A stretch of 63,952 nucleotides of DNA, the filler included, from Platydemus manokwari (Eukaryota): NCBI GenBank assembly GCA_037951405.1. It is 6 parts of 6 records of this genome, joined end to end, with 100 filler letters (N's around TTAATTAATTAA, not from the genome) between each part and the next. Parts side by side here need not be neighbours in the genome. Positions count along the whole stretch, not along the records: positions 54,388 to 63,952 come from JBBMOY011231432.1; 5 more parts are not named here. The stretch is one strand, 5' to 3'. Below, piece by piece: positions 54,388 through 63,952 of the stretch; the first letter of the stretch is position 1; every line of letters begins with the position of its first letter. The translations under genes and the position numbers were made by a program. Under the pieces are notes generated by a model. The model had not been told where the DNA came from. It was given only the letters and a program-made list of their open reading frames with translations, and ran no database searches.

Positions 54388-54462
54388 TTTTTTACTTTTC
54401 CATTCAAAATTAGTGTTTCATTTTAACAAAAAAACGCTCATTTCATACCGGTACACCTGGTA
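54388..54462. mobile_element. End of a mariner-like DNA transposon: 28-bp TIR (54433-54460) plus TA
   Basis: Reverse complement TA-CCAGGTGTACCGGTATGAAATGAGCGTT, resembling the Mos1 TIR as recalled; inverted match to 63876-63900. Confidence 0.8.
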
Positions 54463-54988
54463 CAACCAGTGATGAGAATCATTTTGAGTGAAAATTACAA
54501 GGCCGCGAGAATAGATACGTGTTCAAACGTTATGGATCCAGTATTTGGAAGATGGGTGTCGACGGAGGATAAAAAGTGAAGAGCGGATATATTAATATTG
54601 CAGGGCGCTGGAGTAACGGGGAACATAAAATAGTAGGATCTATGCAGCAGAGGACATAGAGAAAGCACGAAAACATATGTTGTTCCCAATACAGCGAGAG
54701 AAGGTAATCATGAATATGGTACAACGAATATTAGGAGGCAGTCCAGACGGAACATTAAATTATGAGGCATTGTTATCAGCAGATCATTTCAATGAAGCAG
54801 TAAAGGGACTGTTTAAAAGTTTATATGGAAGATTTCAGGAAATAGGAGCAATATTTTCCATATTTCTGGGAATATATTATATAGTGGTGATAATAAAAAT
54901 GGTATTTTCATCGCTAATGACGGGGAAAACACTACAAGAGATTTTTGGGTGTTCATGGAAAATACTATGTTGTATATGTCCATCATAA
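54463..54988 (+). pseudogene. C-terminal half of a chuvirus-G/gB-like class III fusion glycoprotein, including the TM region
   Basis: QPVMRIIL..TCSNVMDPVF, RIYAAEDIEKARKHMLFPIQRE (cf. GIY...L..LR.HIMFP.E), LYGRFQEIGAIFSIFLGIYYIVVIIKMVFSSLMTGKTLQEIFGCSWKIL. Confidence 0.82.
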
Positions 54989-55712
54989 GAACGAGCTAGA
55001 ACAAATAAAAGCAGAAAGCAAACAAGCCAGAGGAGGAGGAATGTGGACGATGAACGAATTAGGAATGTATAATCCAATAAGAAGATGGGTGTATGATCAA
55101 CAAATGATGAATCAGGGGTTTTATAACCCTATGATGAAACAAGAAATACCTTCAAATTATCCAGCGGGATATGACGACTGGGAAGTAATGTATGGAGGAA
55201 GAAAAGAGAAGTTATTTGAACAATCAATGTCAGGATATAGAAACATGAACGAGTATTACCCATATACAATGGAAAGGCAGATGATCAACAAAATAAAAGA
55301 CCCGTTAATCAGAAATGTAAAGCAAATATACGCCATACATTCAGCAACAGGCAAAGGACATAGTCCCATAGTAACGGTGTTAATGAACAATAGGCCAGCA
55401 AGAGCCTTAATAGATACAGGAGCAGAGGGATCAATGATTAGAAAGGAACTACTCAATGAATATCAGCAGACAAAGATAAGAAAGGACAAAGATGTTCTCG
55501 TAGGAGCAGGAGGAAAAAGGATTGAGACAGCTGGAAAGGTAACGATAAACATAGCGTTTGGAAATATACAGATAGATCATGAATTTAAGGTAGTAACAGA
55601 AGGATTAAACGACATACTGATAGGAATGAACTTATTAGAACAATTAACGGGAGTAGTTTTGGACGACGTTACAAATATCATACAAGCAAATACCCCAACA
55701 AAAGGACGATAA
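54945..55712 (+). pseudogene. Met/Tyr/Asn-rich linker plus retropepsin aspartic protease
   Basis: VTVLMNNRPARALIDTGAEGSMI (DTG at 55413-55421), flap LVGAGG, DILIGMNLL. Confidence 0.92.
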
Positions 55713-55939
55713 GTTAACAATACAAGAGATAGTTAGATTACTAGCAAGATGTGAAAGTGTATTAATGTTTCCTGTAGAAGCAACCAATGAAACGTTAATG
55801 TTTGAACCACGACAGATAAATGATGAAATTCAAATGAGTTCGATTTTCGCAACAGCACAGGATGGATACTATCCGTTTAGAGTTACTAATTATGGAAATA
55901 ATATCGATACGACACACGGAAGCGATTGGATTCATAAGA

Positions 55940-60192: not shown

Positions 60193-60251
60193 AAGATGAA
60201 AGGTGCGGAGAGAGATGATGAATAAATGAGCAATAAATAATATAATTAATA

Positions 60252-62680
60252 ATGAGTAAATATATGGAGAAAGAAAAGAATAAGATAGTGGAAAAAATGG
60301 CAATATTTTTTAAGTTTGATGAATTACAGGATAATGCATATATAATAGATCAAGGTTTTTCACAGTATGAGCCAGATAATATGTGTGCAATAATTCACAC
60401 CAAGACAATGCCAAAACCACTAGTAAACAATCTGAAGCCAGGACAAAAAACATTGTATGGGGAGGAAGATGAAGCCCTCAACATATGCATGGTGAATAGT
60501 GAGCAAGAAATAAAGACAATGAGACAGAAAAGTGCTCGAGAAGAAATGGAGTTAGTCAAAGAAATACAAAGTAGCAGTAGCACTTATATTGGAAAATATT
60601 CCAGTAAAACCAGCTCTAACAATGCCGATAACTGAGAGAATATTGCCAAAAGTATTAAATGTGCCAGCAACGTCACCAGTATACGTCCCATCAAAAGTGG
60701 TAACGATGCAAGGACATGCTACAAGTAACAAGGATGTTGGATATTTAGGACAATATTTAGTCAATAGGGAAATTGACTATCAGGCCATGGACGAGTTTAA
60801 TAAAAGGAAAAAGACGAAACGTTGTGGAGGTCATGATCCACCAAGGAGAAGGATCAACAAGGGAGCCACGAAAAGCCAGGGCATTTTTTAAATGGAAGTC
60901 TTTGAGATTTCATAGGACAACCATTCCAGAGTTACCATTTACACATGATGTGAAATGGGGAGAATTACCTGTAACAAATAATAGACTTGCATCTAGTGGC
61001 AAGTCAGCCTAGATATCCACATGTGGAAAAATTAAGAATGTTGGAAACGGCGGAAATACGATTTATACTAAATTGAGCCAGATAGGAATGAGAATGGATA
61101 TCTCATGTACAATTATAAAACAAGAGTAAATAAGGAAGAATTATTTGTGGAAGGGAATTAATTAAAGGACTATGAATTATGAGGAAGACGAGTAAATTAT
61201 ATTTATAATGAGTTTGCCAGGAGACGTGGTAGTAGAAACAATGAAGGAATATATTAGACAAAATTTCTTAATGAGAGAACATGTCAATAAACTAAGCATT
61301 ACGCTTTATAATAAAGGAGTAAGACTGAGAAGTAGAGACCTATTAGAACAATACCATTTAAACCGTACAATTTTAGACAATTTAGGAGTTTTAATTAAGT
61401 ATAAAGAACCGGTTGAAAAAGAAATAAGGGAATTATATATAAATGCCAATCAAATAATAGAAGTGGATTTGGATGAAGAAGAAGTTACTCCAGTAACAAA
61501 GAGTAGTGAGGAGAAATCTCCGAAATCAGCAAACTCTAAATCAAGTGAGTTAAACTCCGACGAGGATTTTTTTAAAGGCATTGGGATTGAGAACGAAGAA
61601 AAGAGATAGTATAATGGATATGGTGGAAAGAATGCCAAAGAATCAGCTACAAAAGGAAATAGAAAAGAAATACTTATGTTTGGGGTGTATAGGAAAGCAA
61701 AAACATAAATGTCCAAATAAAGAAAGTATAGAAGAGAAAGCGGAACCACGAGAAGAAATAATCAAACAAATACAAGAAGAGCGAAAAGAGGCATTGGCAC
61801 TAGAAAACAGTAATAGCAAGGAGCAAGAAAGCATGTCAAGGAAAAAAATAGTATATCCATATAGGGAAGGAGAGTGTAATAAAACAATAGAAGAAGAGGA
61901 GGGCGCCATATTAGAGGAGATAAGTGATGAAGAAAAAGATGTAACAGAGCCACCAAGAGAAGAATTAGGAGAGGAAGAGTTGCTGGAAGTTCTGGGAGAA
62001 GAAAATCATGAAAGATATGATAATTATAAAGAACTATTCCAATATTTTGATCAAGAATTATTAAATGAAAGCCAACAAACACATACAGCACAGCAAACCA
62101 ATGCAGAAACCAAAGACAAAGGCGCAGCCACACGAAAACCTAGAGGTAGACCAGTAGGATCAACGAATAAAGCAAAAAATCCAGAACCGACAGGTTACCC
62201 GCAAATGGGGTAGAAGAAGTACCTGTGGAACAACTTTTCAGCATACATCAGGGAATACACTCAAAAAAGGAGACAAGGAAATAGAAAAGATGAGACAATA
62301 TTTGAGAGCAGTAAATAAATTACAATGTACGCTCAGCCGGAATGAACGGGAACAAGTAAATAGATTGAGTAAGCTAACAAAACCAATTAAAAATTCATTA
62401 AAAGAAATGCAACAATGCAATAACAAATAGGAGTTAAAAATAGTGAGGAAGTCATTAAATGAAGAAGAAAAGACAGTGTGGAAAATAGCGGTCACGCTAA
62501 AAACATTTAGTAATCACGTAGATATGGGTATAATAGACATAGACGAAGGAGCAGAAATATTATACGATGAATACGAAGATAGAGTAAACGAGTTAGGAGG
62601 ATGGACCCCAGTAGTTACCACGCAATTAAAAGGAATGAAAAAGCCAGAGCGTGAAAAACCAGTACAAGGAACAGGATTTA
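60252..62680 (+). pseudogene. ORF1 of the retroelement: long frameshifted protein of unknown function (Gag position) with Cys/His cluster, acidic tract and AT-hook
   Basis: Abutting + strand ORFs 60252-60635, 60589-60891, 60773-61012, 61208-61609, 61581-62213, 62443 onward; CLGCIGKQKHKC; RKPRGRPVGSTNK. Confidence 0.6.
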
Positions 62681-63875
62681 CTTTGGCAACAATAGTTCAG
62701 ACGCTATTCGCGATATACGTAATAAGCAATATATGGGGTGTGAATGCTGGAATTAGTGGATATGATTGTAGTAAACCACGGTGGGGGAAGAAATACTCTC
62801 TATTAGATATTGAACAATGCCCAGAGACATATCCAGTAAATATTACACAATCAAGACCAAAGAAAATGTTTGTGTATCAGGAATCTGAGTTTCTATTTGA
62901 AAAAGCAAGGGAATGTAAAATTACATATCAAGAAATGCTTTTCCATTGTTCATACAAGAGAGGAGGATACACGGCATGGTTGCCAGTGCCAGAAAAAGCC
63001 GCATTTGAGAATGAAATTTATAAATATCAAAAGGGATACAAGTAATAGTGTCACCAGGACGAATAAACAGATACACGGTAAATCAAGCAGGATGGTCTAG
63101 TAATGGGGGATATTGTGAAGGTGGAGATTACATGATAGATGGAAAGGTAGTAAAACACGTGGTGGCATATAGACATTATATTATAGAATTGCGAGAATAT
63201 CAAGCTACATTTGATGCAAAAACAAAGAAAATGACCACATGGACGCATTGCGAATATGATAATTCAACATGTGATATAAGTCATCCATACAAATGTCCAT
63301 TAAAGCTGCTCAAAAAGACGGAATTTAGAGAGATTAAGGGGAAAATATTTAAGGAAACTAAGTTCTCTAAGGAATAAAACTTGGATGCACCAACAGAGAC
63401 AGTAGAAATTAGGATGAAAGAAACACCAATAGTGTATATGGCCGATCGGACGAGTGGTGCTAAGAGGTTCGTTCACAAGGGAAAAGATAAGAAATGCGCA
63501 CAGCAGGTCATAGCGACAAATTATAAAGGCATACATCTGAGTAAGAACGAAATAAAAGATGCTAAGACAAATAGATAAACTGGATATCAAGTTATCCTAG
63601 TATTTTAACAACAAGCTTGACTACTTTTACCATCTCAATCAGGGGTATCTAGAGAAAATGTACATGGAAATGATGTTAAAATATTGTAAACTAAGGCTTA
63701 AGATGTTGCAAACACAGTTGGCATTGGCGGTGACAAATCCCGAACTTATAGCCCCGTTAATATTTGATGATAAGGGAACATTCGCTAGAGTAGTGGGAGA
63801 ATTCATTTATACCTTCCAGTGTAAAATATTAAACAACTTATTGGTCAGAAAACATGAATACTGTACCAACGATAT
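62680..63875 (+). pseudogene. Internal signal peptide plus N-terminal half of the chuvirus-G/gB-like glycoprotein
   Basis: TLATIVQTLFAIYVISNIWGVNAG then ISGYDC (GYDC 62758-62769)..YSLLDIEQC, ARECKITY..FHC, GGYCEGGDY, YFNNKLDYFYH, YCKLRLKMLQTQLALAVTNPELIA..GTFARVVGEFIYTFQC..EYCTND; two frameshifts and in-frame stops. Confidence 0.85.
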
Positions 63876-63952
63876 GGTGTACCGGTATGAAATGAGCGTT
63901 AAGATACAAATATGTTGGTAGGGAAGATTTGTTGTGAACAAGCCTTAATTTT
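63876..63952. mobile_element. Opposite end of the same mariner-like family (TIR lacking its first ~3 nt)
   Basis: GGTGTACCGGTATGAAATGAGCGTT (63876-63900) is the exact reverse complement of 54433-54457; internal sequence differs beyond the TIR. Confidence 0.8.

What the first reader, a model, noticed from the sequence alone, without database searches (positions are those of the whole stretch)
54388..63952. Element is circularly permuted and bracketed by outward-facing mariner ends that both interrupt the same spot of the glycoprotein
Seen: 54433-54457 and 63876-63900 are a perfect 25-bp inverted pair. The left one has the full CCAGG end and a TA. The glycoprotein stops at ..EYCTND on the right and resumes at QPVMRIIL on the left; by family spacing about 10 codons are missing and the join is out of frame, so the right junction has a small deletion. 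Inference: either (a) a circular DNA form (1-LTR circle or episome) was captured into the chromosome by mariner insertion/recombination rather than by its own integrase, giving mariner-[element]-mariner, a potential composite transposon; or (b) a tandem array of the unit collapsed in assembly; or (c) the contig is itself an extrachromosomal circle.
Basis: partly seen in the sequence, partly recalled or inferred. Interest (0 to 1): 0.85.

Follow-up and report, generated by a model that had tools for sequence, protein, structure and literature searches.

The report
Dead flatworm retrovirus split by mariner
A long-broken, envelope-carrying jumping gene, probably of a flatworm, is interrupted by a small DNA transposon, and its rotated, transposon-bracketed look is most likely a by-product of short-read assembly rather than a captured DNA circle.

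Summary
The 9,565-base contig carries a perfect 25-bp inverted pair resembling the Mos1 mariner terminal repeat, and both ends cut a gB-like envelope gene at one spot, with about 32 bases lost on the right. Relatives read env-protease-RT-RNase H-integrase in one protein, so the natural order is the published GAG-ENV-POL order of flatworm Ty3/gypsy elements, and the contig is a rotated single unit with one LTR. The copy is long dead (8 stops in about 1,540 codons, several frame switches). In the one run that holds it, the mariner end is extremely abundant, the copy's own pieces sit in the lowest depth class, and no listed contig bridges the LTR. Best reading (0.68): one provirus, one mariner; the assembly stopped at the mariner on both sides and ran from the 3' LTR into the 5' LTR. 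A real tandem sharing an LTR (0.13) or a circle re-inserted through mariner homology (0.09) are not excluded; a free circle is unlikely. No transposase could be linked to the ends, and no host single-copy depth was measured. Long reads decide.

The parts
54288..54387 (.). Artificial linker between concatenated contigs (N44, 12 bases, N44); the finding is a contig of its own
   Evidence: the same linker occurs 5 times in the window
54388..54460 (+). 73 bases of a mariner-like end with a complete 28-bp terminal repeat (54433-54460); likely the 3' end (that label is recalled from the Mos1 subterminal sequence, no call)
   Evidence: repeat matches the Mos1 3'ITR printed in PMC2642840 at 24 of 28 with one gap (compared by eye); summed depth 192,677 at 54428
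54461..54462 (+). TA target dinucleotide
   Evidence: 31 contigs leave the stretch at 54462 into unrelated DNA
54463..54988 (+). C-terminal part of the gB-like envelope gene, broken by a frame switch near 54580-54630
   Evidence: PF24664 positions 477-593, E 2.3e-23; alignments to relatives
55365..55691 (+). Aspartic protease domain
   Evidence: PF13975 E 1.1e-11
55907..57049 (+). Reverse transcriptase and RNase H, broken by stops (56127, 56223, 56726), frame switches and gaps
57061..58365 (+). Integrase (H2C2 finger and core), stops at 57475 and 57583
58366..59737 (+). Purine-rich, decayed tail after integrase; likely the element's own C-terminal extension
   Evidence: relatives P0009, P0013, P0148 run 420-590 aa past the aligned integrase; no homology shown for the tail itself; run contigs identical to it at depth 11.7-20.8
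59775..60178 (+). Single LTR-like repeat of about 400 bases (bounds approximate, inferred); the likely assembly join or recombination point
   Evidence: depth rises from 13 to 112-450 from about 59775; one contig enters at 59783 from unlike DNA; no polypurine tract visible just upstream
60182..60189 (+). Primer-binding-site-like motif (label recalled, not tested against a tRNA)
   Evidence: print-out; no tRNA gene in the window
60246..62460 (+). Broken 5' coding region in the gag position; no Gag domain detected
   Evidence: only 62224 onward aligns to relatives
62650..63875 (+). N-terminal part of the gB-like envelope gene, stops at 63375 and 63598, frame switches near 63000 and 63570
   Evidence: PF24664 positions 9-90, 137-208, 310-396
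63876..63952 (+). 77 bases of the other mariner-like end; repeat lacks its 3 outer bases and the TA
   Evidence: last depth bin 40,552

Best explanation
The contig is one rotated unit of a decayed Ty3/gypsy element with a gB-like envelope gene, cut at both ends by mariner-type repeats, and it most likely represents a single chromosomal provirus with a single mariner inside env that the assembler broke at the mariner and joined through the two LTRs. Steps: (1) shown: env lies before protease-RT-RNase H-integrase in this family, so the contig is permuted at env; (2) shown: the copy is dead and the mariner end is a very abundant dispersed repeat; (3) inferred: one mariner inserted at a TA in env after most of the decay; (4) inferred: an abortive excision cut at one end, where Mos1-type enzymes nick 2-3 bases inside the repeat, was repaired with loss of the 3 outer bases, the TA and about 32 bases of env, which would pin the mariner in place; (5) inferred: the assembler could not cross the mariner, ended both arms 75-77 bases into it, and passed from the 3' LTR into the 5' LTR through a shared stretch.
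For: Relatives are single env-protease(-RT-RH-IN) proteins: 9 of 12 scanned carry env then protease, 3 of 3; P0030 and P0152 add Retrotrans_gag before env. Both ends interrupt env within about 40 bases; chance for two independent hits about 0.009. The two ends differ beyond the repeat, as the two ends of one element should. End bins have depth 36,338 and 40,552 against 40-1,228 in the 28 inner bins, and 31 contigs leave at the TA. 7 listed run contigs identical to this copy have depth 11.7-20.8, median 12.9, at or below 20 listed single-contig variants of other copies (median 21.7); only one contig lies on 59501-59740. No listed contig bridges the LTR, and a 93-base LTR piece with 1 difference has depth 38.9, two to three times the flanks. 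8 in-frame stops in about 1,540 aligned codons, about 3-4% decay. Non-transferred strand cut at +2/+3 in Mos1: PMC2642840 passages.
Against: No second LTR with a host flank and matching target duplication was seen; the join itself was not observed to be false. If all decay came after insertion the two LTRs would differ by 6-8%, and only 4-17% of such pairs share 77 identical bases; assemblers usually stop at such repeats (own knowledge). Summed depth over the LTR (112-450) is not double that of the next 80 bases (199-282). The tool warns that contig depth is no copy number, its tables keep only the best-supported rows (8 of 1,846 and 8 of 125 pieces shown), the run may be the source of the assembly, and no host single-copy depth was measured. 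Identical 25-mers at 3.7% decay still have probability 0.15, so the younger age of the mariner is weakly supported.
Confidence: 0.68

Rival explanations
1. A real head-to-tail tandem (LTR-internal-LTR-internal-LTR) made by unequal exchange between the LTRs after the mariner had inserted; the contig is the true stretch between the mariner of unit 1 and that of unit 2.
For: Gives exactly this order with one hybrid LTR. Tandems sharing an LTR are common for LTR families in Drosophila (10.1101/158386 passages). A run contig joins the tail to the LTR start without differences (59473-59827).
Against: Two units should give double depth or two contigs on the tail; one contig at depth 13 lies on 59501-59740, the low end of the depths seen. 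Exchange between LTRs already diverged by several percent is less frequent (own knowledge). Depth baseline not measured.
Confidence: 0.13
2. A one-LTR circle carrying the mariner (popped out of the chromosome by LTR-LTR recombination, or less likely a fresh reverse transcript hit by mariner) re-entered the genome by recombining with another mariner copy, giving mariner-[permuted element]-mariner.
For: Fits the order, the single LTR and the low depth, and would assemble as this contig without any error. LTR-LTR pop-out circles are known in yeast (PMC4751563 passages). Thousands of mariner copies offer targets (10^3-10^4 per genome in planarians, PMC3036899).
Against: Needs two rare germ-line events; no precedent in searches. 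The fresh-transcript version does not fit a copy with 3-4% decay and identical repeats (weak). Outer mariner ends are not in the contig; long cargo sharply lowers Mos1 transposition (PMC2642840 passage), so mobility as a composite would be poor.
Confidence: 0.09
3. A chimeric contig from two different family copies that either share an inherited mariner insertion or were hit independently near the same place.
For: The family is multi-copy: 1,804 run records laid, 545 at 99+, 546 at 95-99, 713 at 90-95%, so a path could switch copies.
Against: Independent hits within 40 bases have probability about 0.009; a shared insertion still needs a pol-LTR-5' join to explain the order.
Confidence: 0.08
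4. The contig is a free extrachromosomal circle (element plus one mariner) present in the sample.
For: A permuted LTR-element scaffold in a rotifer was read this way (PMC5408684 passage).
Against: That element was intact and highly transcribed; this one is dead. Depth is in the lowest class, not amplified, and a circle without selection at about one copy per genome is implausible (inference).
Confidence: 0.02

Closest known systems
GAG-ENV-POL errantiviruses with HSV/gB-type ENV of Platyhelminthes, Nematoda and Bryozoa (PMC13524379; 9 flatworm rows in its Supplementary file 1)
   Same: gB-type envelope before protease-RT-RNase H-integrase; unit of about 9.4 kb; multi-copy family; likely flatworm host
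   Different: This copy is dead, carries a mariner in env and is assembled in permuted order; no Gag domain detected; not placed in their RT tree and not compared with their sequences
Burro / GYPSM1 giant gypsy-like elements of planarians (PMC6431247 passages)
   Same: env in frame between gag and pol, with hits to mononegavirus fusion proteins
   Different: Burro exceeds 30 kb with a polyprotein near 4,900 aa and many extra domains; this unit is 9,415 bases without such domains
Mos1 mariner (mauritiana subfamily) terminal repeats (PMC2642840, PMC5449632)
   Same: 28-bp repeat, 24 of 28 positions match the Mos1 3'ITR with one gap; TA target
   Different: No transposase in the contig; one end lacks 3 outer bases and the TA; subfamily not tested on protein
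Tandem LTR elements sharing an LTR (10.1101/158386) and 1-LTR circles (PMC4751563, PMC5408684)
   Same: Same pol-LTR-5' junction
   Different: Junction not confirmed by reads here; depth does not show extra units

Membership tests
Ty3/gypsy (Metaviridae) | Order protease-RT-RNase H-integrase | tested here: met
   Pfam hits in that order, 54921-58533
Ty3/gypsy (Metaviridae) | Two LTRs with TG...CA ends and target duplication | tested here: inconclusive
   No LTR pair in the contig; one LTR-like repeat inferred from depth; ends degenerate
Ty3/gypsy (Metaviridae) | Primer-binding site and polypurine tract | tested here: inconclusive
   PBS-like motif at 60182 (label recalled); no polypurine tract visible before the repeat in this copy
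Ty3/gypsy (Metaviridae) | Gag capsid domain | tested here: inconclusive
   None found in Pfam, against 20 long relatives or in the Atlas for one ORF; relatives P0030/P0152 have Retrotrans_gag
Ty3/gypsy (Metaviridae) | RT phylogeny within Ty3/gypsy | not tested
   No tree built
GAG-ENV-POL HSV/gB-type errantivirus | gB-type (class III) envelope | tested here: met
   PF24664 on 4 ORFs; weak PF00606 (E 0.083, below cut-off); no structure predicted
GAG-ENV-POL HSV/gB-type errantivirus | env upstream of pol | tested here: met
   env C-part directly precedes the protease; same order in single proteins of relatives
GAG-ENV-POL HSV/gB-type errantivirus | Intact ORFs (criterion of the published set) | tested here: not met
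   8 stops and several frame switches: a dead copy; intact family members in this genome not tested
Burro giant elements | Over 30 kb with extra domains | tested here: not met
   9,415-base unit, no such domains
mariner (DD34D) | Short terminal inverted repeats like known mariners | tested here: met
   24 of 28 to Mos1 3'ITR
mariner (DD34D) | TA target duplication at both ends | tested here: inconclusive
   Present on the left; absent on the right, inside the deletion
mariner (DD34D) | Dispersed multi-copy family | tested here: met
   Depth 192,677 at 54428; 31 contigs leave at the TA
mariner (DD34D) | DD34D transposase between the ends | not testable with these tools
   No genome held; no transposase motif in the window; pattern scans gave 0, 0 and 3 chance hits
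Composite transposon | Two complete elements with intact outer ends flanking a passenger | not testable with these tools
   Contig stops 73 and 77 bases into the mariner
Extrachromosomal circle | Exonuclease resistance, no chromosomal flanks | not testable with these tools
   Only assembled contigs of one run available

The most novel reading that the evidence does not exclude
A dead enveloped retroelement left its site as a one-LTR circle carrying a mariner and re-entered the genome by recombining with another mariner copy, so that abundant mariners act as landing pads for circular DNA and build a mariner-[permuted provirus]-mariner composite without any integrase.
Probability: 0.09. Interest if true: 0.6.

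Novelty: new member of a known kind. Interest (0 to 1): 0.13.

Why it matters
Most likely it matters only as a caution: a transposon inside a provirus plus an LTR join makes a short-read contig look like a captured circle or composite transposon. The element adds one more compact, dead member to the published flatworm-type GAG-ENV-POL group. If long reads confirmed the junction with two mariners, it would be a rare natural record of integrase-free re-insertion of a retroelement circle through DNA-transposon homology, testable in genomes with thousands of mariners.

Tried and rejected
No whole genome is held. Related-locus scans found no close copy: 0 in viral contigs; 26 distant integrase loci in metagenome contigs, 23-48% identity, none matching env. 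Word-based protein search for longer env relatives found none among 200 candidates; the HMMER search found 146. Repeat-pattern scans: 0 in viral contigs twice, 3 in prokaryote genomes without flanking similarity, taken as chance. Gag not found; the second Atlas query did not complete. A host single-copy depth baseline was not obtained, so copy-number statements rest on depths inside the element. A reading of the right junction as TA plus a repeat with 7 extra bases was rejected because these bases encode the Cys-Thr-Asn-Asp/Glu motif kept in relatives. One run contig joining 54462 to 63878 (side 26, between unknown) was not used: it can come from any two mariner ends. Promoter scan at chance level. 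Two mariner survey papers gave no matching repeat. Searches found no report of a mariner-flanked permuted retroelement and none documenting this assembly error for LTR elements; the library lacks most subscription papers. Earlier-finding look-ups were empty; 69 gave two unrelated notes.
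Full report
Setting. The window is a string of six short contigs joined by an artificial N-linker; the finding is the last one, 54388-63952, 9,565 bases. No whole genome is held. A kinesin on another contig of the window has trematodes and cestodes as its best named relatives (457-490 bits among the top rows, against at most 329 for non-flatworms; the four best hits are unnamed), so the host is likely a flatworm, if the contigs come from one organism, which I did not test.

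The observation. The 25-mer occurs twice, as a perfect inverted pair at the stated places, and in 0 of 100 shuffles. Self-comparison finds no other long repeat, so the contig holds no LTR pair. The left end has three more terminal bases and a TA; the right end has neither. The left 28-mer matches the Mos1 3'ITR printed in PMC2642840 at 24 of 28 positions with one gap (passage; same ITR in PMC5449632, passage; compared by eye). Past the repeat the two ends differ, so they are two different ends in the arrangement of one element. No transposase could be tied to them.

The retroelement. Pfam gives, left to right: fusion-glycoprotein profile PF24664 positions 477-593, protease, RT, RNase H, integrase, then PF24664 positions 9-90, 137-208 and 310-396. 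A HMMER search with the env C-part returned 146 proteins. Of 12 top or long hits scanned, 9 carry env followed by protease and 3 of these go on to RT; P0030 has a Gag domain before env; 3 of 3 longer cluster members agree. The natural order is therefore gag-env-pol, and the contig is one unit rotated at env. This order is published for HSV/gB-type errantiviruses of nematodes, bryozoans and flatworms (PMC13524379: passages, section 8, supplement list and 9 flatworm rows of Supplementary file 1) and for the giant Burro elements (PMC6431247 passages). PMC10084718 (passages) saw gypsy fragments beside such glycoproteins in insects without clear capture. No Gag domain was detected in this copy.

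The junction. Aligning each flanking peptide separately to 11 long relatives placed both in 9; in the 8 with both alignments reaching the junction the spacing is the same and implies about 32 missing bases on the right, besides the TA and 3 outer repeat bases. Two independent insertions this close have a chance of about 0.009, so both ends record one insertion. Mos1 cuts its non-transferred strand at +2/+3 inside the repeat (PMC2642840 passages); loss of exactly three outer bases plus flanking DNA is what a failed excision at that end would leave (inference).

Age. There are 8 in-frame stops in about 1,540 codons aligned to P0148, leaving out two from an overlapping off-frame alignment, and several frame switches; this corresponds to 2.8-4.4% decay, 95% range 1.6-7.4%. 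The two 25-mers are still identical, which has probability 0.15 at 3.7%: weak support for a mariner younger than the decay.

Reads. One run holds the stretch, as assembled contigs, with 0.52 of the sampled words; it may be the source sample. Laid on the contig, 1,804 records fit (545 at 99+, 546 at 95-99, 713 at 90-95%); the end bins have summed depth 36,338 and 40,552, the 28 inner bins 40-1,228, and 31 contigs leave at the TA into unrelated DNA. So the mariner is a very abundant dispersed repeat (planarians carry 10^3-10^4 mariners: PMC3036899 passages) and the retroelement a family of moderate size. Seven listed contigs identical to this copy have depth 11.7-20.8, median 12.9; 20 listed single-contig variants of other copies have median 21.7, minimum 15.1, and are biased upward because the tool keeps the best-supported rows. 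On 59501-59740 a single contig of depth 13 lies alone; depth steps to 112-450 from about 59775, which marks an LTR-like repeat ending near 60178. A run contig joins the tail to the first 50 bases of this repeat, but no listed contig crosses it, and a 93-base piece with one difference has depth 38.9 (8 of 125 pieces shown). The tool states that these depths are not copy numbers, and I obtained no host baseline.

Mechanism. One provirus with one mariner explains both ends with one event. An assembler cannot cross a repeat of this abundance; both arms end 75 and 77 bases into shared sequence (73 plus TA, and 77), the length expected if a graph assembler with words near 77 stopped at a branch (inference). 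The remaining step, pol-LTR-5' region, is either an assembly path from the 3' into the 5' LTR or a real product of LTR-LTR recombination. Against the assembly path: if the LTRs differ by 6-8%, only 4-17% of pairs share 77 identical bases, and LTR depth is not double that of the next 80 bases. For it: a near-identical LTR piece at two to three times flank depth, no bridging contig, and low prior odds for the real routes. A tandem sharing an LTR is a known structure (10.1101/158386 passages) but should show two tails. A circle popped out by LTR recombination (PMC4751563 passages) and re-inserted through mariner homology fits all data but needs two rare events, and searches found no precedent (listings only, except PMC5408684). 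A free circle was suggested for a permuted rotifer scaffold (PMC5408684 passage), but that element was active. As a composite it would move poorly, since long cargo sharply lowers Mos1 transposition (PMC2642840 passage). My odds: assembly join 0.68, tandem 0.13, re-inserted or captured circle 0.09, chimera of two copies 0.08, free circle 0.02; these are judgements, not computed.

Verdict. The anatomy is real in the assembled sequence and well read by the first stage, but the likely cause is ordinary: a dead member of a published kind of enveloped retroelement, one mariner insertion, and a short-read join. Four earlier AI notes from other genomes describe the same gene order as known; one pointed me to the Burro paper, which I read in passages. 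Interest 0.13.

Noticed in passing
window 36003-38183 (-): Long ORF of a KIFC3/kinesin-14-like motor; best named relatives are flatworms.
   Followed up: partly
window 8833-9333 (-): ORF with 5 CCHC zinc knuckles (PF00098, E 8.6e-33); host nucleic-acid-binding protein or a Gag remnant, not examined.
   Followed up: no
window 28456-28895: Tandem array with a 40-base period; 11-base and 39-base arrays at 29329-29459 and 32191-32402.
   Followed up: no
protein P0009: A 2,627-aa env-protease-RT-RNase H-integrase protein is filed as a hypothetical protein of a Flavobacteriaceae MAG; likely an animal retroelement contig binned by mistake.
   Followed up: partly
proteins P0150, P0011, P0013: Relatives carry two to four aspartic-protease domains after env, P0150 also ankyrin repeats and a C2H2 finger in 4,844 aa; the window's copy shows one protease.
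   Followed up: no
window 63864-63868: Five env bases just before the right junction equal the TA plus the three missing outer repeat bases; probably chance, but it may have guided the repair.
   Followed up: partly
window 60246-60635 (+): First ORF after the PBS-like motif has a weak DUF7659 hit (E 5e-4, below cut-off).
   Followed up: partly
window 60261: Depth rises again to 590-1,500 and two contigs enter from unlike DNA, so most family copies likely have a different LTR and leader.
   Followed up: no
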